From: Synergistales bacterium
Lineage (GTDB): Bacteria > Synergistota > Synergistia > Synergistales > JAFGMB01
Assembly (NCBI GenBank): GCA_963666205.1
Contig: OY762654.1
Coordinates: 2,560,001-2,624,000, forward strand
Length of the DNA: 64,000 bases
Direction: 5' to 3'
In this document: positions 428 to 22,064 of the stretch, piece after piece
Numbering within the stretch: position 1 is the first letter of the stretch
Layout of the letters: each line of letters begins with the position of its first letter
Position numbers and translations under genes: made by a program
The notes under the pieces: model-generated
Told to the model about the DNA's origin: nothing
Database searches by the model: none
Seen by the model: the letters and a program-made list of their open reading frames with translations, nothing else

Positions 428-1053
428 TGTCGGAACAGGGCAATGTTTTTCCTGATGATATGATTTCAAGAGAAAAATGGATTACTGATACCATTTCCCG
501 GCATCTGCTGGTTATAGAACAGCTTAATCACATTGTTCCTGAAATTGAAAATATAGTGCAGAGAATAGTGGATTCCTTATTAAAGGGAGGCAAGGTGATC
601 TGGATGGGTAATGGCGGAAGTGCAGCAGACAGCCAGCATCTTGCAGCGGAACTTGTAGGAAGGTTCAAAAGGGATCGGCAGCCGATTCCATCACTTGCTT
701 TGACATCAAACATGTCTATCCTGACTGCTGTGGCCAATGATATGGGCTATGATTCGATCTTCTCACGCCAGATAGGTGCCCTTTGCAGCAACGGAGATAT
801 AGTGATAGGCATCTCCACAAGCGGGGAAAGTCCTAATGTTTTAGAGGGTATCAGGAAAGCATCATCCATGGGGGCCTGCTGCATAGGATTTACGGGAAAA
901 GATGGCGGTATCCTCAAAGACATTGTAGATGAGTGTATTCTCATCCCTTCCGATGATACTGCCCGCATACAGGAGGCCCACATTCTTGTAGGACATATCA
1001 TCTGTGATCTTGTAGAGGGGGAGATCAGCAGGGATCATGAAAGTTCAATTTAA
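427..1053 (+). CDS. gmhA: Phosphoheptose isomerase
   Basis: GNGGSAADSQH, ISTSGES and ARIQEAH motifs; ATG at 427 overlaps the upstream stop. Confidence 0.95.
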   Translation: MSEQGNVFPDDMISREKWITDTISRHLLVIEQLNHIVPEIENIVQRIVDSLLKGGKVIWMGNGGSAADSQHLAAELVGRFKRDRQPIPSLALTSNMSILTAVANDMGYDSIFSRQIGALCSNGDIVIGISTSGESPNVLEGIRKASSMGACCIGFTGKDGGILKDIVDECILIPSDDTARIQEAHILVGHIICDLVEGEISRDHESSI

Positions 1054-2524
1054 AGAACCGGATAAAGTCATAAGATCGGTGCGGTCCCTTTTTCAGGATA
1101 CAAGGATCTTAGTAGCTGGAGATATAATGCTGGACAGATATCTCTGGGGTAACGTGGAAAGAATATCCCCGGAAGCTCCGGTTCCTGTGGTTAAACTCTA
1201 CAGGAGATCGTACATGCCTGGAGGAGCTGCGAATGTAGCCCTGAACCTTTCTTCACTTGGTTTTCAGGTGGATCTGGCAGGTTTTGTCGGAAATGACCGG
1301 GAAGGCACTATCCTTATATCGGAATTGGTCAACAGGGGAGTCAATGTAGAGAATGTTATCAGTCTTTCAGAAAGGCCTACAATAACAAAAACAAGAGTGA
1401 TCGGCGGGCACCAGCAGATGGTCAGGGTAGATGAGGAGGATCTTTCTCCATATGATCATTCGCACATTCAAAAACTGATTACTGATCTGGAGTCCTGTAT
1501 GGAAAACAGACCTGGAGCGGTTATACTTTCAGACTACGGAAAAGGAGTAGTCATCCCAGATCTGAGTCAGGGGGTCATTTCCAGGTGTAGAAACTCCGGC
1601 ATCCCCGTCCTGGTGGATCCCAAGGGGGCAGACTTCAGTAAATACAAGGGTGCAAGTGCAATAACTCCGAACATGAAAGAGCTTTCTGGTGCAGTTACAG
1701 TCAGCCTGGACAGCATTGATCGCATAATAGATTCAGGCAATATTCTTATGAGGGAACTTGGTTTCGATTTTCTGGTTGTTACAAGAGGAGAAAAGGGAAT
1801 GATCCTTCTGGAGGAAAAAAGTTCCCTTGAAATACCTACCCAGGCGAAGGACGTCTTCGATGTTTCCGGTGCAGGAGATACCGTGATAGCTACCCTTGCA
1901 GGGGCTCTTGCCTGTGGGCTTTCCCGGGAGGATTCAGTACGTCTTTCTAACCTGGCTGCCGGTATCGTAGTAGGAAAAGTCGGTACTGCCCCTGTAGAAA
2001 AAGCAGAGCTTCTGGAAGCTCTCTCAAGGGAAGAAGAACTCCCATTGCAGGGAAAGATCTACCTTCACCTTTCCAGCCTTCTTTTGAAGATGGAAAGGTG
2101 GAGAGATGAGGGTAAAACAATAGCTTTTACAAATGGATGCTTCGACATCATCCACTCCGGTCACATAACGTATCTCGAAAGATCGGGGCAGGAATGTGAC
2201 CGTCTTATAGTAGGGGTTAATTCCGATGACTCGGTCAGGAGGTTGAAAGGATCAACCCGGCCTGTCAATTCCCAGGAAGACAGGATGTCTGTTCTGGCAG
2301 CTCTTTCCTGTGTCGATGCCGTGGTTCTTTTTGAAGAGGATACCCCCCTGGATCTTATAGAAGCCATCCGACCTGATGTTATCATAAAGGGGGACGATTA
2401 TACTGAAGAGCAGGTGATCGGTGCTACTCAGGTAAGATCCTGGGGCGGCCGCGTCGTACTGGTGCCGGTTCTTCATGGCAGAAGTACCACAGGGATTATC
2501 GAGAGGATCCGGAATGCTGAATGA
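1037..2524 (+). CDS. hldE: Bifunctional heptose 7-phosphate kinase / heptose 1-phosphate adenylyltransferase
   Basis: RISPEAPVPV, PfkB-type DVSGAGDT, C-terminal FTNGCFDIIHSGH domain. Confidence 0.95.
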   Translation: MKVQFKEPDKVIRSVRSLFQDTRILVAGDIMLDRYLWGNVERISPEAPVPVVKLYRRSYMPGGAANVALNLSSLGFQVDLAGFVGNDREGTILISELVNRGVNVENVISLSERPTITKTRVIGGHQQMVRVDEEDLSPYDHSHIQKLITDLESCMENRPGAVILSDYGKGVVIPDLSQGVISRCRNSGIPVLVDPKGADFSKYKGASAITPNMKELSGAVTVSLDSIDRIIDSGNILMRELGFDFLVVTRGEKGMILLEEKSSLEIPTQAKDVFDVSGAGDTVIATLAGALACGLSREDSVRLSNLAAGIVVGKVGTAPVEKAELLEALSREEELPLQGKIYLHLSSLLLKMERWRDEGKTIAFTNGCFDIIHSGHITYLERSGQECDRLIVGVNSDDSVRRLKGSTRPVNSQEDRMSVLAALSCVDAVVLFEEDTPLDLIEAIRPDVIIKGDDYTEEQVIGATQVRSWGGRVVLVPVLHGRSTTGIIERIRNAE

Positions 2525-2576
2525 ATTTATCTCTGAAAAACAGCATATCTTGTCCATTCATAATCAGAAAGCATAA

Positions 2577-3641
2577 ATGCCTTTTTTAATACTTAACCAT
2601 AATTTCTCTACTGGAGTTTCCAGTCAGTTCAAAGATACTATCCGGACCTATCTTGAAAAGGAGGGCTATTCTCCTGCGGCCTTCTCTGGTTGTGAAGGGA
2701 TAACACCTCATAGGCTTGAGAAAATACCCCTTCTTTCGACATCTGGATTCTGTGATGAGGATGAGTATATTCTTTTTGACAGCAGGAGCATTTTTGATAT
2801 TGATCTGGATCTTTTTATAACAACCTGCCGTGTCCTTGAAGGAGAATTTGTATCAGCCCTAAGGTATACAGATGAGATCAAGGAAAAAGTATTATATGGA
2901 GTGGATGATAGATTCTCCCTTTACAGAATAGATTTTAACAGAGACCAGTATATTGATGGATACGAAGCTGGAGGTATATATTACTTCAAGGGTCAATTAT
3001 GGGACCGCTTTTTAACCTCTATTGATGCTTCGGGAGGTCCCAATATTATTTTAGACCCTGTACGGACTTTTGAGGATATTCCGTTTTCCCGGAGAATTAT
3101 CAGAGGGTTACCCATGGGGGGGCATTACCGGACTGCTATACAGCATGCTCAGGTAACATCAGGATCCTCAAAGGGCCGATCCGAAGAGAAGAGGGTTCCG
3201 GCTCTGTTCCTTGACAGGGACGGGGTGATCATCGAGGATACGGGATATGTACATGGGACTGAACTGAAGTTCATCGAACGGATATTTCCCCTGATCGAAA
3301 GGGCCAATAAGCATGGGGACCCTGTAATAGTTGTTACGAACCAGTCCGGAGTGGCAAGGGGATATTTTACCGAGACAGATGTGGCGGATACCCATTCCTT
3401 TATCAGGAAATACCTGGATGCCATTGGTCTGAGGATCGATGGATTCTATTGCTGTCCATTCCATCCTGAAGGAATTGGAGAATATAGTGGGAAGAGATCA
3501 TTCTGCCGGAAGCCTGAGCCTGGCATGATCCTAAGGGCCTGTGAAGATTTCAGCATAGATCTTTCAAGGTCTTTAATGGTGGGAGACATGGAGAGGGACA
3601 GGATAAAACTGCCTTACCTCGATTTTCGTATCTTTGGCTGA
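2577..3641 (+). CDS. gmhB: Heptose 1,7-bisphosphate phosphatase with N-terminal degenerate nucleotidyltransferase-like domain
   Basis: C-terminal FLDRDGVI, VTNQSG, CPFHP and CRKPEPGM motifs; extra N-terminal region of about 200 aa. Confidence 0.85.
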   Translation: MPFLILNHNFSTGVSSQFKDTIRTYLEKEGYSPAAFSGCEGITPHRLEKIPLLSTSGFCDEDEYILFDSRSIFDIDLDLFITTCRVLEGEFVSALRYTDEIKEKVLYGVDDRFSLYRIDFNRDQYIDGYEAGGIYYFKGQLWDRFLTSIDASGGPNIILDPVRTFEDIPFSRRIIRGLPMGGHYRTAIQHAQVTSGSSKGRSEEKRVPALFLDRDGVIIEDTGYVHGTELKFIERIFPLIERANKHGDPVIVVTNQSGVARGYFTETDVADTHSFIRKYLDAIGLRIDGFYCCPFHPEGIGEYSGKRSFCRKPEPGMILRACEDFSIDLSRSLMVGDMERDRIKLPYLDFRIFG

Positions 3642-3809
3642 GGCTGGATATCAAACTGTATCCTCATAAATAATCCGGGTAATATCAAGGTCAGAGAGTA
3701 CAAATGGGTCTGAAGCCCTATTGAATTGTGCACTTTCTCGGGATAACATAGCCATGGTTTATATTTTTCTGATCCTTGACAGTTTAACTTGGTTAAATTG
3801 CTTTTTACA

Positions 3810-4009
3810 TCCGTGAAGAGACCTGAAGGCAGGAAAGGAGGTGCCGACGACCCCCAGCCAACAAGGAAGAGCGGATGTTGAAGACGGACCGATATCACCA
3901 TAAGGAGAGGGATGGAATTTCAAAGGAAACGAGGAAACTTTGGAAAACCCCCGATCCAGGCAGATAAAGGCCGTATAAATACAGACAACCAAGGGGGTTG
4001 CATTTAATA
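3810..4009 (+). promoter_or_regulatory. Structured GGA-rich leader (or sRNA) upstream of the porin gene
   Basis: Four short hairpins with GGA-rich loops; AACCCCC (3946-3952) is complementary to the RBS region GGGGGTT (3993-3999). Confidence 0.55.
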
Positions 4010-5431
4010 ATGAAGAAATTTCTTGCACTTGTAGCAGTAGTCGCACTTGTAGCATTTGCCGCTCCGGCATTTGCAGCTAATCCTTTCATGGATGTTCCCA
4101 TGAACAGCTGGGCTTATGACGCAATCAGCCAGCTTTCCGCAGTAGGCGTAGTTTCCGGTTATCCCGATGGTACCTTCAAGGGCAACCAGCCCATGACCCG
4201 CTACGAGATGGCTTCCATCGTAGCTCGCGCTCTGGCCGTGGTAGACATGAACAAGGCCAGCAAACAGGATGTTGAGATGCTCAAGAAACTCGTTGTAGAG
4301 TTCAAGGACGAGCTTGATGCACTTGGCGTACAGGTTGACGAGCTTGACAGCCGCGTAGCAGTTCTCGAAGAGAACCTGGGCGGATGGAAGTTCTGGGGCG
4401 AGTTCCGTCTTGATGCGAAGTTTGCAGACGAGACCGATGGAGCTTACGGAGTAGGTGGAGACACCGATTTCACCCAGAGCCGTTACCGTATCTGGATGAG
4501 CAAGGTAATCGATGACAAAGTCAAGTTTATCGGCCGTGTAACAGGTCAGAGTCTTGCTTTCAGCCGTTACTACCTCGAAGTTGCCATGCCCATGGATATG
4601 ACCATGTGGGCAGGTCTGTGGTGCTATGACTGGGAAGGCGCCAATGGATTCTACAATGACAACGATGCATGGTTCGGCGATCAGGCCCTTCAGGGTTTCT
4701 ACTTCACAAAACCCTTCTCCATGGGTAATTTCTCCTTCTACGTTGCTCATAACGAAGGTGACTCTACTGATGAGTACTTCCGCTATGGCCTTGACGTAAA
4801 CTTCAACGTAGCCGAGAACTTCCGTGTCGGTATGGGTGCTCTTATGTTCGACTATGATTTCACCGATGATGGCGGCAGTGTTTACAACGTCAACTTCGGT
4901 TTCAACTTCACCGATGACATCGCCTTCAAGGGTATCTACTACATGGAAGATCAGGATGCTCCTATCGGAAACGACGACACTCCCAGCGCTTTCAGGGCAA
5001 TTGTTGACGTAAGCCAGAACGCTTTTGGCTTCACCAGTGTATGGCTTGAGTACGCTTCCGCTGATGAGGATTTCTACCTCTTTGATTTCTCCGGTTGCGA
5101 TGCTGATGGTATTGGACCCTATGACAACTACGGTGCTCCTATCACTCCTGGGCTTTCTAAAGAAGCAGACGGTGTCGAGACTGATATCCTCTTCGTGAAA
5201 CTGAACCAGAAATGGACCGACAAGTGGAGCACATTCCAGCGCTATGTTGATGTAAGCCATGATGACGGTTCTTCTGACGACCTTGATGTTACCAACTTCA
5301 CCTTTGGAGTTAAGTACTACTATACCTCCAACCTCAGCTTCGAGCTTGTTTATGACGATGTTGACTACGGTGATGACCTTCCTCTTAACGACGACAGCCT
5401 TGTCAGACTTCGTACCCACGTTTCTTTCTAG
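4010..5431 (+). CDS. SLH-domain outer-membrane porin (OmpM-like)
   Basis: Signal peptide, SLH domain (FMDVP...WAY...GYPDGTFKG...TRYE), coiled coil, aromatic-rich beta-barrel ending in Phe; biased codon use. Confidence 0.9.
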   Translation: MKKFLALVAVVALVAFAAPAFAANPFMDVPMNSWAYDAISQLSAVGVVSGYPDGTFKGNQPMTRYEMASIVARALAVVDMNKASKQDVEMLKKLVVEFKDELDALGVQVDELDSRVAVLEENLGGWKFWGEFRLDAKFADETDGAYGVGGDTDFTQSRYRIWMSKVIDDKVKFIGRVTGQSLAFSRYYLEVAMPMDMTMWAGLWCYDWEGANGFYNDNDAWFGDQALQGFYFTKPFSMGNFSFYVAHNEGDSTDEYFRYGLDVNFNVAENFRVGMGALMFDYDFTDDGGSVYNVNFGFNFTDDIAFKGIYYMEDQDAPIGNDDTPSAFRAIVDVSQNAFGFTSVWLEYASADEDFYLFDFSGCDADGIGPYDNYGAPITPGLSKEADGVETDILFVKLNQKWTDKWSTFQRYVDVSHDDGSSDDLDVTNFTFGVKYYYTSNLSFELVYDDVDYGDDLPLNDDSLVRLRTHVSF

Positions 5432-5463
5432 TTTAAGCTGAACCATATTTAACGCACCTTACC

Positions 5464-5500
5464 AAAGGGGCGGAGGGATTTATCCCTTCGCCCCTTTTTT
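5464..5500 (+). terminator. Intrinsic terminator
   Basis: AAAGGGGCGGAGGGAT/ATCCCTTCGCCCCTTT stem followed by a T tract. Confidence 0.9.
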
Positions 5501-5568: not shown

Positions 5569-6324
5569 ATGAAGAGAAATAGAATTGCAGCATTACTCAT
5601 CTCCGCCCTTTGGGTCACGTTCTTTGCCATATCGGCAAATGCAGGTACTGAAGATATCCTGAACCGCTGGTCCAAGTCCAGACATTTCGAGAATGATCTT
5701 GGAAGCGAACTGGATATTACCGTTACCTATTACTCAAGTGAGTATATTGAAGCCCTTGTACAGAATGAAGCGGAAAAAAACCTCTGGACTGCAGATGAAG
5801 CTGAGAACTACAAGTATGAACTGCTGAAAGGACTTCAGCTGGATGAGTATGTACCAGTACATCTCGAATTTGACAGTAAAGGTCCGGCCATGCACATGGC
5901 CCCCTTCGACAGACAGATAGTGATCTGGATGGGAAATAAAAAATACACCCCTGTGGATTATGACAAGCGTTTCAATTTCAAGCTCATGGGTAAAAGGGAT
6001 GGTCTTGTCTATTTCCCCAGATTCGATGAAAAGAGCGGAAAATCTCTGCTTGAGAATGCAAAACGGGTAAAGGTAAGTATTTCGGGGAGTATAAGTTCTA
6101 CAACGGAAGGGATCGCCACTGTGGATTTCTCGTGGGATGTGGATAATGATGATCCAGCCAGGCTTTTGAAGGGTAAGGCAGCTGCCCAGCTCGAGATGGA
6201 CCGTCTTATCAAGCGGATAGAAAAGCTGAGTGGAGAGAAGTCTGTCCTTGAAGCCCAGCTTGCCGAGATCCAGGCGGAACTTGACAGGATCAACCAGAGG
6301 ATAGAAGAACTTAGAAAACAGTAG
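5569..6324 (+). CDS. Secreted hypothetical protein with C-terminal coiled coil; paralogue of 16363..17391
   Basis: AGGAGG RBS, signal peptide, heptad-rich C-terminus. Confidence 0.85.
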   Translation: MKRNRIAALLISALWVTFFAISANAGTEDILNRWSKSRHFENDLGSELDITVTYYSSEYIEALVQNEAEKNLWTADEAENYKYELLKGLQLDEYVPVHLEFDSKGPAMHMAPFDRQIVIWMGNKKYTPVDYDKRFNFKLMGKRDGLVYFPRFDEKSGKSLLENAKRVKVSISGSISSTTEGIATVDFSWDVDNDDPARLLKGKAAAQLEMDRLIKRIEKLSGEKSVLEAQLAEIQAELDRINQRIEELRKQ

Positions 6325-20336: not shown

Positions 20337-22064
20337 TTGGCTGGAAATAGCAAAAGTTCCAGAAGTGGTAAAAATAGATTTCCAAGGGCCCGTCAGGGAA
20401 CGTTGAGGTTTATTCCCCTTGGTGGTCTGGGTGAAATCGGAAAGAATATGTTTGTCCTCGAATATGGGGATGATATCCTCGTAGTAGACTGCGGATTGAT
20501 GTTCCCCGATGAGCAGATGCTGGGAATAGACTTTGTGATCCCGGACATTACCTATCTGCAGGATAACAAAAGTAGAATAAAGGGCATCATTATTACCCAT
20601 GGACATGAAGATCATATCGGGGCACTTCCCTTTGTACTGCCCAAACTCGATGTGCCTGTTTATGGGACGCGTCTTACAATGGGAATGGTAAAAAAGAAAA
20701 TGGACGATTCTGCATCCGGATATTCTCCGGATATGAGGGAAGTAGTTACAGGTGAAACGGTCTCCATAGGGTTGTTCAGTGTCAAGTTCTTTGCTGTATG
20801 CCATTCTATTCCTGATGGTGTTGGTCTCAGGATCGAAACGCCGTTGGGTCTTGTTATGCACACAGGTGATATAAAACTTGATCCGACACCCATAGATGGC
20901 AGGTTGACGGATTATGCTGTCTTTGCAGAAGCTGGAGAAAAGGGTGTCCTTCTGATGCTTTCCGACTCAACGAATGTGGAGAGAAAGGGTTTCACTCCTT
21001 CGGAGAAAATTGTGGGGGCTACAGTGGACAATCTTTTCAGGCTTAACCGTACCCGGAGGATCATTATTGCTGCTTTTGCAAGTAACCTCCATAGGGTTCA
21101 GCAGGTTATCAATACAGCTGCCAGATTCAACCGTAAGATAGCCTTTCTGGGAAGAAGTATGGTTGCGAATGTGGAACTTGCAAAGGATCTGGGCTATCTG
21201 GATGTGGATGATCGAATGGTAATATCCCCTGGTGAAGCAGAAAACCTCCCTCCAAATAAAGTTGTTGTCATGACCACGGGGAGTCAGGGAGAACCCTTTT
21301 CCGGACTTGTTCTCATGAGTATGGGGCAACATAAACATATTAATCTCGGACCTAAAGATCTGGTAGCTGTTTTTGCCACTCCCATTCCTGGAAACGAGCG
21401 CCTGGTAAGCAATACGATAAATCGTCTTTTTGCCTGCGGATGTGATGTTGTTTACGAAAAGGACCGGGAGATCCATGTTTCCGGACATGCCTCGAGAGAG
21501 GAACTGAAAATGCTTCTGAACATGGTAAGACCCAAATACTTCGTTCCTGTCCACGGAGAATACCGCCACCTTGTAAGACATTCCCAGCTTGCACAGGAAG
21601 TTGGAATCCCTGCAAGAGATACTTTTGTTCTTGAAAAGGGAGATGTCCTTTCTATTACGAAAAGACAGGCCAGAGTACAGTCCAGGGTCCAGGCGGGAGG
21701 GATTCTCGTTGATGGGATAGCCCTTGGAGAACTTGAGGGAAGTGCCATGAGTGAAAGACGGGACCTTTCAGAAGAGGGTATGGTTGCAATATCAATATGT
21801 ATAAATCAGAAAGGGAGTCTCATCGCTGAACCCATGTTTGAGAGCAAGGGATTCATTCATATGGAGGAGGCTTCTGTCCTTAAATCCGAGATGACGGCCA
21901 TGGTAAAAAAAGTGACCAGAGAATTTTCAAACAAAAAAACTTATGATCTTGATACCCTGAAGAATCGCTTGAGGACAGGAGGAAGGGAAGTGATAAGAAA
22001 ATACAGTACATCTAAACCAATTATCATTCCCCTTATTACGATCATTACCTCAGGGCAGGTATAG
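20337..22064 (+). CDS. rnj: Ribonuclease J
   Basis: PLGGLGEIGKNM, THGHEDHIG, HVSGH and PVHGE motifs. Confidence 0.95.
   Translation: MAGNSKSSRSGKNRFPRARQGTLRFIPLGGLGEIGKNMFVLEYGDDILVVDCGLMFPDEQMLGIDFVIPDITYLQDNKSRIKGIIITHGHEDHIGALPFVLPKLDVPVYGTRLTMGMVKKKMDDSASGYSPDMREVVTGETVSIGLFSVKFFAVCHSIPDGVGLRIETPLGLVMHTGDIKLDPTPIDGRLTDYAVFAEAGEKGVLLMLSDSTNVERKGFTPSEKIVGATVDNLFRLNRTRRIIIAAFASNLHRVQQVINTAARFNRKIAFLGRSMVANVELAKDLGYLDVDDRMVISPGEAENLPPNKVVVMTTGSQGEPFSGLVLMSMGQHKHINLGPKDLVAVFATPIPGNERLVSNTINRLFACGCDVVYEKDREIHVSGHASREELKMLLNMVRPKYFVPVHGEYRHLVRHSQLAQEVGIPARDTFVLEKGDVLSITKRQARVQSRVQAGGILVDGIALGELEGSAMSERRDLSEEGMVAISICINQKGSLIAEPMFESKGFIHMEEASVLKSEMTAMVKKVTREFSNKKTYDLDTLKNRLRTGGREVIRKYSTSKPIIIPLITIITSGQV

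What the first reader, a model, noticed from the sequence alone, without database searches (positions are those of the whole stretch)
3810..4009. Array of GGA-loop hairpins (CsrB/Rsm-like architecture) in front of the SLH porin gene
Seen: 11 GGA triplets in 3832-3944 and four short hairpins with similar purine-rich loops: GGCA-ggaaaggagg-TGCC (3828-3845), CAACA-aggaagagcgga-TGTTG (3859-3880), CCAT-aaggagaggg-ATGG (3898-3915) and TTTCAAAG-gaaacgaggaaa-CTTTGGAA (3918-3945). AACCCCC (3946-3952) or CAACC (3986-3990) can pair with the RBS region (3993-4000). Known: CsrA/RsmA binds GGA in hairpin loops; multi-GGA sponge RNAs are mainly described in Gammaproteobacteria; S-layer and porin mRNAs often have long stabilising leaders. 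Inference: an undescribed cis-regulatory RNA or mRNA-borne protein sponge on an abundant transcript, or SD-like decoys that block 5' decay by RNase J.
Basis: partly seen in the sequence, partly recalled or inferred. Interest (0 to 1): 0.75.

Follow-up and report, generated by a model that had tools for sequence, protein, structure and literature searches.

The report
Known SLH-motif leader of porin mRNA
The GGA-rich stretch is the long folded leader of the messenger RNA for the cell's main outer-membrane porin; it belongs to an RNA motif that was published in 2019 but never characterised, and it is very unlikely to be a CsrA sponge.

Summary
Only hairpin 4, and the inner 3 pairs of hairpin 1, are conserved. 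The region is the roughly 230-nt 5' UTR of an OmpM-type SLH porin gene (4010-5431). Metatranscriptome contigs cover it from 3782 into the coding sequence.

Orthologous leaders from about 10 families of Synergistales share six helices, five of them with compensatory changes. They also share a loop holding an 11-nt perfect complement of the 16S rRNA 3' end (an SD mimic) beside a C-run complementary to the unusual GGGGG Shine-Dalgarno. A further shared part is the hairpin AAGGAAACGWGGANACUU. That hairpin also precedes OmpM or porin genes in Negativicutes, Halanaerobiales and Riflebacteria.

The element is homologous to the seed of the published orphan "SLH motif" riboswitch candidate (Stav et al. 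2019), which is not in Rfam 15. It is therefore a new member of a known kind.

The CsrA reading fails on three counts: the leader persists in genomes with no csrA hit, the SD has no GGA, and no separate sRNA is seen.

My best mechanism is inferred: the SD is sequestered, and a 30S subunit is captured at the SD mimic (standby plus 5' stabiliser). A ligand riboswitch or a protein partner remains possible.

The parts
3760..3765 (+). Possible -10 box TATATT. It would put the transcription start near 3772.
   Evidence: Inference from the sequence and from relatives with clear -10 boxes at a similar position relative to the conserved leader. The consensus scan did not list it.
3772..4009 (+). 5' UTR of the porin mRNA; a member of the SLH motif.
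   Evidence: RNA contigs of 4 metatranscriptome runs from 2 studies cover 3782 onwards. Depth is zero in 3696-3769 in 4/4 runs. Contigs bridge the leader into the CDS. It is homologous to the published seed IGR.
3776..3781 (+). TTGACA, part of a conserved YC(A/T)TGACA box near the 5' end of the RNA. It is probably not a -35 box.
   Evidence: In relatives the box lies downstream of good -10 boxes, or only about 12 nt before helix P1. An RNA contig starts at 3782.
3807..3878 (+). P1. Arms 3807-3814 and 3871-3878. It closes the 5' domain.
   Evidence: RNAalifold. 94.8% of cells paired; 4 of 5 pairs show changes on both sides.
3822..3866 (+). P2. Arms 3822-3824 and 3864-3866.
   Evidence: 97.3% of cells paired; 3 of 3 pairs show changes on both sides.
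3828..3859 (+). P3. GGC 3828-3830 pairs with GCC 3857-3859. Invariant, so unproven.
   Evidence: 96% paired with no variation. Hairpin 1's inner 3 bp can pair in 25/26 leaders.
3833..3843 (+). SD mimic GAAAGGAGGUG in the apical loop. No start codon follows it.
   Evidence: It is an 11-nt perfect complement of this genome's 16S 3' end, CACCUCCUUUC. Duplex energy is -22.4 kcal/mol, against -11.5 for the real SD. GGAGGUG is at least 90% invariant in A1 and is present in other phyla.
3848..3855 (+). Anti-SD CGACCCCC (C-run 1), next to the SD mimic in the same loop.
   Evidence: It pairs with 3993-4000 in the single-sequence MFE fold, at -16.6 kcal/mol. Loop-to-SD duplexes are -13 to -18 in 25/26 leaders. 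In other phyla the segment at the same place is complementary to that leader's own, different SD region.
3884..3974 (+). P4. Long-range helix: ACGG-A-CC (3884-3890, with A3888 bulged) pairs with GGCCGU (3969-3974). It encloses P5.
   Evidence: 81.2% of cells paired; 5 of 6 pairs show changes on both sides. It is present in the MFE fold.
3918..3945 (+). Stem UUUCAAAG/CUUUGGAA, loop GAAACGAGGAAA. This is the cross-phylum core of the motif.
   Evidence: 29/29 orthologous loci carry it. The outer stem covaries across 79 sequences from several phyla. The loop has an unpaired probability of 1.00. It is the only hit of model R1 in this genome.
3946..3952 (+). AACCCCC (C-run 2), a second SD-complementary segment. 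In the fold it pairs with the G-run 5' of P5.
   Evidence: C-runs follow P5 in leaders of other phyla as well.
3986..4000 (+). P6. Local hairpin CAACC/GGUUG holding the Shine-Dalgarno AAGGGGGUU (3991-3999).
   Evidence: 78.5% of cells paired. The outermost pair varies: CG 6, UA 5, AU 3. GGGG is invariant.
4010..5431 (+). OmpM-type porin gene: signal peptide, SLH domain, coiled coil, barrel.
   Evidence: Pfam SLH, 1.6e-11. Residues 2-180 match PDB 8bys/8bym at 2.7e-31 and D. radiodurans SlpA at 1e-15. Single copy in the genome.
5464..5497 (+). Intrinsic terminator-like hairpin followed by a T-run.
   Evidence: 15-bp stem. RNA contigs end near 5453-5471.

Best explanation
What it is (shown, about 0.9). 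The stretch is the 5' UTR of a monocistronic mRNA for the single OmpM-type SLH porin. It runs from about 3772 to 4009. It is a member of the published, uncharacterised SLH motif RNA.

Architecture:
- A 5' domain (P1-P2-P3) whose apical loop carries an invariant Shine-Dalgarno mimic, GAAAGGAGGUG, directly followed by a C-run.
- A long-range helix, P4, that encloses the strongly conserved hairpin P5 (AAG-GAAACGAGGAAA-CUU) and a second C-run.
- A small hairpin, P6, that holds the unusual GGGGG Shine-Dalgarno.

How it most likely works (inferred, about 0.4).
1. In the resting fold the real SD is paired, mainly with the C-run in the 5' loop. The resting mRNA is therefore poorly accessible.
2. The neighbouring SD mimic is single-stranded. 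It fits the 16S rRNA 3' end far better than the real SD does, so it captures a 30S subunit that cannot initiate there.
3. The bound subunit shields the 5' part of the mRNA from 5'-end-dependent decay, as STAB-SD does.
4. It also sits as a standby ribosome beside the SD:anti-SD helix, ready to take over the real SD when that helix opens. The result would be a long-lived, heavily translated mRNA whose output follows ribosome availability.
5. P5 is the binding site of a further, unidentified conserved partner.
For: Transcript.
- RNA contigs in 4 of 4 runs laid (2 studies) cover 3782-5453 at word depths of 10^2-10^3, against 0-11 over the upstream gene and 0 in 3696-3769.
- One contig begins at 3782 directly after what I recall to be Illumina adapter sequence.
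- Contigs span 3838-4200, 3872-4200 and 3903-4230.
- No + strand terminator-like site lies between leader and CDS.

Conservation.
- 37 of 41 related genomes have the porin.
- Of the 29 loci with upstream DNA, 29 have P5, 26 have the SD mimic and 27 have a G4+ SD.

Structure on 26 leaders.
- 87.6% of cells are paired, against 75.3% in shuffles (0/500 reach it) and 34-50% when partners are slid.
- 16 of 28 pairs have changes on both sides.
- The P5 outer stem covaries in 79 sequences from several phyla (78.2% against 62.5%, 0/500).

SD mimic.
- It is an 11-nt perfect complement of the genome's own 16S 3' end. Duplex energy is -22.4 kcal/mol against -11.5 for the real SD.
- No ATG, GTG or TTG lies at initiation distance behind it.
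- GGAGGUG stays invariant across phyla while the adjoining segment and the SD region change together.

Anti-SD.
- Of 57 non-redundant leaders with GGAGGUG, 47 have a C-run within 14 nt (mean duplex with their own SD region -15.4).
- Of the other 10, 7 carry a different segment that fits their own SD region. At most 1 of 56 other SD regions and at most 2 of 200 shuffles fit as well.

Supporting context.
- RNase J, Y and E/G are all encoded in this genome.
- STAB-SD precedent: passages of PMC4113751, section 3.2.
- Membership: passages and a supplementary table row of PMC6429828, plus alignment to the seed IGR.
Against: - There is no experiment of any kind. RNA contigs cannot show true ends, strand or half-life.
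- Within Synergistales the loop:SD pairing rests on conservation. Only 1 of 8 pairs shows changes on both sides, and 435/500 shuffles match that count.
- The local hairpin P6, a 5'-proximal CUUGGUU and C-run 2 compete for the same SD region.
- Of the 10 leaders without a C-run, L105 shows no complementarity, and L123 and L062 show only moderate complementarity.
- Leaders in Selenomonas, Veillonella and Phascolarctobacterium have P5 but no SD mimic. The mimic cannot be the universal core.
- P5, the most conserved part, is not explained by the ribosome model. I found no consistent complementarity of its loop to the genome's rRNAs.
- The authors who described the motif rated it a riboswitch candidate.
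Confidence: 0.42

Rival explanations
1. Metabolite or second-messenger riboswitch, as proposed by the authors of the SLH motif (they suggest c-di-GMP). A ligand would bind a pocket formed by P5 and/or the 5' domain and shift the balance between the SD:anti-SD pairing and an open SD.
For: The architecture is complex, multi-helix and covarying. The P5 loop is highly conserved and unpaired across phyla. An SD/anti-SD pair of the kind seen in riboswitch expression platforms is present. The published assessment is in passages of PMC6429828.
Against: All downstream genes I saw with a signal peptide are envelope structural proteins, OmpM or porin-like. None are enzymes or transporters, so nothing points to a ligand. 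The invariant 5' loop sequence is explained more simply by the 16S 3' end. No ligand test is reported in the only paper found.
Confidence: 0.25
2. Leader bound by a conserved RNA-binding protein other than CsrA, at P5. Examples would be an autoregulatory or envelope-stress factor, or an RNase. The protein would control decay or translation of the major OMP mRNA.
For: The P5 loop holds two GGNNAC half-sites about 8 nt apart and is conserved at sequence level in at least 4 phyla. It has no RNA partner that I could find. The motif is usually single-copy per genome and tied to OMP genes.
Against: No candidate protein was identified. No conserved neighbouring gene was examined. The same data fit a ligand or a ribosome contact.
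Confidence: 0.2
3. CsrA-controlled leader or mRNA-borne CsrA sponge. CsrA dimers would bind GGA in the hairpin loops.
For: fliW and csrA are adjacent in this genome. Conserved GGA lie in the SD-mimic loop and twice in the P5 loop. GGA density is in the extreme tail of the genome.
Against: The CsrA family is found in 27 of 41 relatives. The full leader is present in G025, G027, G030 and G033 (97-100% complete) with no hit, and in G004 and G036. There is no hit in 3 of 5 motif-bearing genomes of other phyla, whose completeness is unknown. The SD is GGGG(G), without GGA, in 26/26 leaders. Only 4 of 11 GGA are conserved. No separate sRNA and no CsrB/Rsm Rfam match were found.
Confidence: 0.05
4. 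Passive stabilising leader only. A stable 5' structure, as in E. coli ompA or S-layer mRNAs, would prolong half-life without any switch or specific partner.
For: It is a long, structured 5' UTR on a very abundant transcript. The fold z-score is -2.68.
Against: Passive structure does not explain sequence invariance of single-stranded loops across phyla. Nor does it explain co-variation between the anti-SD and the SD.
Confidence: 0.08

Closest known systems
SLH motif RNA, an orphan riboswitch candidate (Stav et al. 2019, BMC Microbiol 19:66, PMC6429828; I read passages and one supplementary table row)
   Same: Same genomic context: upstream of SLH-domain genes. Same taxa: Synergistia, Negativicutes, Clostridia. 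The window's leader aligns block for block with the intergenic region that seeded the motif.
   Different: I could not see the published consensus drawing or alignment, so I cannot say which of my helices it contains. The paper offers no mechanism beyond a guess at c-di-GMP.
STAB-SD 5' mRNA stabiliser of Bacillus thuringiensis cry3A (Agaisse and Lereclus 1996; read as described in PMC4113751, section 3.2)
   Same: An SD-like sequence in a long 5' UTR that does not start translation. It is complementary to the 16S 3' end and is proposed to hold a 30S subunit that blocks RNase J. RNase J is encoded in this genome.
   Different: Here the SD-like sequence sits in the loop of a conserved multi-helix domain, about 60 nt from the RNA 5' end. 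It lies beside an anti-SD and forms part of a larger motif that includes P5. Stabilisation is untested.
E. coli ompA 5' UTR and long leaders of S-layer mRNAs (recalled, not read here)
   Same: A long structured leader on the mRNA of a very abundant envelope protein. It is thought to set half-life and translation.
   Different: No sequence or structural homology. Those leaders are not conserved across phyla at sequence level.
CsrB/RsmZ sponges and CsrA-repressed leaders such as B. subtilis hag (recalled)
   Same: GGA in hairpin loops. csrA-fliW are present in this genome.
   Different: It is not a separate sRNA. There is no GGA at the SD. The motif persists where no csrA is found. There is no Rfam match.
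Ribosome standby sites (de Smit and van Duin model; recalled)
   Same: A 30S-binding site outside a structured RBS that would let a waiting subunit capture the SD when the structure opens.
   Different: Known standby sites are mostly unstructured tails. Here the candidate is a perfect SD mimic in a loop. Untested.

Membership tests
SLH motif RNA (Stav et al. 2019) | Lies directly upstream of a gene for an SLH-domain protein, on the same strand. | tested here: met
   Pfam SLH, 1.6e-11, at residues 25-68 of the ORF 4010-5431. The leader ends at the start codon.
SLH motif RNA (Stav et al. 2019) | Homologous to the seed intergenic region NC_016148.1/613490-613841. | tested here: met
   The interval comes from the supplementary table row. 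In handle G012 a second SLH gene starts at 613842. The 250 nt before it align with the window leader through the SD-mimic loop, P1, P5 and the SD. That G012 holds the same region rests on the matching coordinate, not on a name.
SLH motif RNA (Stav et al. 2019) | Taxonomic range: Synergistia, Negativicutes, Clostridia and environmental DNA. | tested here: met
   Record titles of pattern hits followed by SLH or porin-like ORFs name Synergistales, Selenomonas, Veillonella, Phascolarctobacterium and Halanaerobiales, and also Riflebacteria.
SLH motif RNA (Stav et al. 2019) | Fits the published consensus sequence and structure (Fig. 3e and its Stockholm file). | not testable with these tools
   Figures are not held. 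No alignment is among the 11 supplementary files. The motif is not in Rfam 15: no match on the window, or on L007, L045, L072 and L123.
CsrB/Rsm-type sponge or CsrA-regulated leader | Separate small RNA with its own terminator (sponge). | tested here: not met
   No + strand terminator-like site in 3782-4010. RNA contigs run from the leader into the CDS.
CsrB/Rsm-type sponge or CsrA-regulated leader | A GGA site overlaps the Shine-Dalgarno (repressed leaders). | tested here: not met
   The SD is AAGGGGGUU. GGGG is invariant in 26/26 aligned leaders.
CsrB/Rsm-type sponge or CsrA-regulated leader | Many conserved GGA motifs presented in hairpin loops. | tested here: not met
   4 of 11 GGA are conserved in at least 19/26 leaders. 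Three of them lie in two loops and one lies in helix P4.
CsrB/Rsm-type sponge or CsrA-regulated leader | Co-occurs with csrA. | tested here: not met
   The leader is present with no CsrA-family hit in G025, G027, G030 and G033 (97-100% complete), and in 3 of 5 genomes of other phyla.
STAB-SD-type 5' stabiliser | An SD-like sequence in the 5' UTR that is complementary to the 16S 3' end and is not used for initiation. | tested here: met
   GAAAGGAGGUG against CACCUCCUUUC of the genome's own 16S, at -22.4 kcal/mol. No start codon lies 4-12 nt downstream.
STAB-SD-type 5' stabiliser | Lies close to the 5' end of the stable transcript and blocks RNase J. | tested here: inconclusive
   It lies about 50-60 nt from the observed or inferred 5' end. 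RNase J is encoded. The effect on stability is not testable here.

The most novel reading that the evidence does not exclude
The SLH motif is not a metabolite riboswitch but an ancient ribosome-sensing leader. An invariant 16S-complementary SD mimic and a co-varying anti-SD share one loop, so a free 30S subunit docking on the mimic both protects the mRNA and opens the real SD. This would tie synthesis of OmpM, the outer-membrane tether of diderm Terrabacteria, to ribosome availability. The universally conserved P5 hairpin would add a second, still unknown input. The arrangement would predate the split of Synergistota, diderm Bacillota and Riflebacteria.
Probability: 0.25. Interest if true: 0.75.

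Novelty: new member of a known kind. Interest (0 to 1): 0.42.

Why it matters
OmpM is the main porin of the diderm Terrabacteria and the tether between their outer membrane and the cell wall. How its very high expression is controlled is unknown. The leader found here belongs to a motif that has had one paragraph in print and no experiments.
- direct RNA evidence that the motif is a highly expressed 5' UTR;
- a helix-by-helix model with covariation;
- a clear negative for the CsrA idea;
- a testable mechanism, an SD mimic beside a co-varying anti-SD.

If that mechanism holds, an 'orphan riboswitch' would become a ribosome-binding control element shared across phyla. If it does not, the finding is simply one more instance of a known orphan motif.

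Tried and rejected
- **Rfam 15.** E-value scans of window 3000-5000 and of L007, L045, L072 and L123 gave only chance-level hits: sno_ncR4 at E 1.4 and mir-1255 at E 0.1.
- **CsrA partner.** Rejected on the phyletic pattern.
- **Leader peptide behind the SD mimic.** No start codon at initiation distance in the window or in the leaders of other phyla that I read.
- **P5 loop pairing with rRNA.** The best duplexes with the genome's 16S fall at different sites for different loop variants. A regex for the complement of the invariant loop positions found nothing in 16S plus the 3.6 kb that follow it.
- **TTGACA (3776-3781) as a -35 box.** No acceptable -10 lies at 16-19 nt. In relatives the box lies inside the transcript or about 12 nt before P1. 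An RNA contig starts at 3782.
- **Sigma-54-like reading of CTTGG..GC.** The spacing is wrong (by eye).
Not conserved.
- **Further copies in this genome.** Regex and model R1 find only this one.
- **Earlier scan notes.** Look-ups by place and by sequence returned nothing.
- **Depth differences in the RNA contigs.** Differences between leader and CDS, and the parts without cover, were not interpreted beyond what allows.

Full report
**Observation.** There are 11 GGA triplets on the + strand in 3832-3944. Only 13 places in the 2.95-Mb genome, counting both strands, reach that density; the mean is about 2.4 per 113 nt. The four arm pairs and the C-rich segments are at the stated coordinates. The gene behind the region is ORF 4010-5431. 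It starts at ATG 4010, has a signal peptide and a Pfam SLH domain, and is single-copy in the genome. Its first 180 residues match solved SLH-domain proteins 8bys/8bym at 2.7e-31 and D. radiodurans SlpA at 1e-15. I saw the OmpM structure paper PMC10628300 only in a search listing. This makes it an OmpM-type porin and tether. Heptose-pathway genes lie upstream.

**Is it RNA?** One run search found metatranscriptome runs that hold the stretch. I laid four of them, from two studies of marine sediment, all as assembled contigs. All four cover the leader and gene at word depths of 10^2-10^3. Depth is zero in 3696-3769 in 4/4 runs and 0-11 over the upstream gene. One contig starts at 3782 directly after a loose end that I recall as Illumina adapter sequence. 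Another ends at 5453 in the same way, just before a terminator-like hairpin at 5464-5497. Contigs span 3838-4200, 3872-4200 and 3903-4230, so leader and coding sequence are contiguous. Contigs cannot prove ends or strand. Relatives have clear -10 boxes at a similar position relative to the conserved leader, and the window has TATATT at 3760-3765. I therefore infer a start near 3772.

**Conservation.** The porin is found in 37 of 41 related genomes.
- Twenty-nine loci had DNA upstream of the start. L028 was dropped because its contig begins inside the gene.
- All 29 carry the hairpin AAGGAAACGAGGAAACUU or a close variant. 26 carry GGAGGUG or a one-letter variant further upstream. 27 have a run of four or more G as their SD.
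- I aligned 26 of the 29. L019, L027 and L032 lack the 5' domain and were left out (A1).
- RNAalifold found P1, P2, P3 and P5. I added the long-range P4 and the SD hairpin P6 after a column scan.
- Over all 28 pairs, 87.6% of cells are paired. The figure is 75.3% in shuffles (0/500 reach it) and 34-50% when partners are slid. 16 pairs show changes on both sides.
- P3 never varies and so remains unproven.

- Hairpin 4 is P5.
- Hairpin 1 keeps its inner three pairs in 25/26 leaders, changing by wobble only. It excludes P3.
- Hairpin 2 is 48% paired. Its loop contains the 3' strands of P1 and P2.
- Hairpin 3 is 41% paired.
- Only 4 of the 11 GGA are conserved.

**Beyond the order.**
By my arithmetic about 140 chance matches are expected in the whole collection, so context decides.
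- By a crude rule, 82 of the 124 are followed within 21-136 nt by an ORF with a signal peptide. 67 of those have an SLH-like N-terminus. At least four of the 82 look like false positives: L066, L094, L145 and L152.
- Record titles name many Synergistales. They also name Selenomonas, Veillonella, Phascolarctobacterium and other Negativicutes, a Halanaerobiales MAG and Riflebacteria MAGs. Sporomusaceae-type records carry porin-like genes without SLH.
- In a gapless alignment of 79 hairpins (18 orthologues plus 61 pattern hits), the loop is fixed by the way the sequences were found. The outer stem is free, and it covaries: 78.2% paired against 62.5% in shuffles (0/500). Pair 16-35 reads GC 26, AU 18, UA 8, CG 6.
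- A covariance model of this hairpin hits 88 of 151 genomes sampled from the phylum, mostly once per genome, and hits this genome once. The model is biased towards the commonest loop, so misses in families with variant loops are expected.

**What it is called.**
- A full-text search led to Stav et al. 2019 (PMC6429828). I read passages and one row of a supplementary table.
- The paper describes an 'SLH motif' riboswitch candidate found in the Thermovirga lienii intergenic region NC_016148.1/613490-613841. It reports 80 unique examples in Synergistaceae, Negativicutes, Clostridia and metagenomes, about 60% of them upstream of SLH-domain genes. It guesses at c-di-GMP as ligand and reports no experiment.
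- In handle G012 a second SLH gene starts at 613842. The 250 nt before it align with the window leader through all conserved blocks.
- The window's element is therefore a member of that motif.
- Searches for 'SLH motif' with 'riboswitch candidate', and for 'SLH riboswitch', found no other paper in the library. The motif is not in Rfam 15.
- I could not see the consensus figure or any alignment. I cannot say which of my helices are in print.
It agrees on distribution but missed the paper.

**CsrA.**
- The genome has adjacent fliW and csrA.
- The CsrA family is found in only 27 of 41 relatives. The full leader is present with no hit in G025, G027, G030 and G033 (97-100% complete), and also in G004 and G036.
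- Three of five motif-bearing genomes of other phyla have no hit; their completeness is unknown.
- The SD has no GGA, and there is no separate sRNA. I put this reading at about 0.05.

**Mechanism (inference).**
- The apical loop of the 5' domain holds GAAAGGAGGUG. This is an 11-nt perfect complement of the genome's own 16S 3' end. Its duplex energy is -22.4 kcal/mol, against -11.5 for the real SD. No start codon follows it.
- Six nucleotides further on comes CGACCCCC. In the single-sequence fold it pairs with GGGGGUUG of the SD at -16.6 kcal/mol. The same loop-to-SD duplex is -13 to -18 in 25/26 leaders.
- Within the order this pairing is supported by conservation more than by covariation.
- Across phyla the picture is stronger. 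Of 57 non-redundant leaders with an exact GGAGGUG, 47 have a C-run within 14 nt. Of the other 10, seven carry an unrelated segment at that place (for example CUCUGGAA, CCUUAGGU or UAGGUA) that is complementary to their own, equally different SD region. At most 1 of 56 foreign SD regions and at most 2 of 200 shuffles fit as well. L123 and L062 are intermediate, and L105 shows nothing.
- So the mimic stays fixed, as expected of a partner of the universal anti-SD, while the anti-SD and the SD change together.
- I read this as SD sequestration combined with capture of a 30S subunit next to the sequestering helix. That is a STAB-SD-like shield (definition read in PMC4113751; RNase J, Y and E/G are encoded) and also a standby site.
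- Weak points of this reading:
  - Several other segments can also pair with the SD region: P6, C-run 2 and a 5'-proximal CUUGGUU.
  - Leaders of Selenomonas, Veillonella and Phascolarctobacterium lack the mimic.
  - P5, the universal core, is unexplained. Its loop shows no consistent complementarity to rRNA.
- A ligand riboswitch (0.25) or a protein partner at P5 (0.2) therefore remain serious rivals.

**Verdict.** It is a new member of a known, uncharacterised motif. Interest is moderate, because the motif controls the outer-membrane tether of diderm Terrabacteria and now has a concrete, testable mechanism.

Noticed in passing
window 3776-3781, and L004, L008-L011, L013-L015, L017, L018, L024, L029, L030: A box YC(A/T)TGACA is conserved near the 5' end of the leaders. 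It looks like a -35 hexamer, but in several relatives it lies inside the transcript. Its role is unknown.
   Followed up: partly
window 3788-3794 against 3987-3993: CUUGGUU near the RNA 5' end is complementary to AACCAAG just before the SD. Similar CCUUGGU/ACCAAGG pairs occur in L017, L018, L029 and L030. This may be a helix joining the RNA's 5' end to the SD region, competing with P6.
   Followed up: partly
L061-L064, L087, L106 (two contigs of one Synergistales MAG); L058/L059; L098/L099; G012 612119 and 613842: Tandem arrays of SLH-porin paralogues about 1.8 kb apart. Each paralogue has its own copy of the leader.
   Followed up: no
L107, L118, L125, L141, L151, L156: In Sporomusaceae-type Negativicutes the P5 hairpin precedes genes for signal-peptide proteins without an SLH N-terminus. 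They look porin-like. The motif therefore follows major OMP genes rather than the SLH domain as such.
   Followed up: partly
window 4387 to 5192: RNA contigs of two runs of one study join 4387 to 5192, skipping 804 nt inside the porin gene (depths 466 and 163). This may be a shorter paralogue or variant in related strains, or an assembly join. Unexplained.
   Followed up: no
window 1037-3641: An hldE-like bifunctional kinase/cytidylyltransferase and a HAD/PNK3P-like phosphatase fusion, apparently ADP-heptose pathway genes, lie directly upstream of the porin gene. They are barely represented in the RNA contigs.
   Followed up: no
window 21747-22040: The C-terminal domain of the genome's single RNase J match lies in this window.
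   Followed up: no
window 5569-6324: A 251-aa ORF just after the porin terminator has only a weak, below-threshold coiled-coil Pfam hit (JIP_LZII). Its function is unknown.
   Followed up: no
A2 columns 19-24 and 27-32: The P5 loop reads as two GGNNAC half-sites. In the unbiased orthologues the first is always G-GNAA-C (GAAA, GGAA or GCAA), which is GNRA-like.
   Followed up: no
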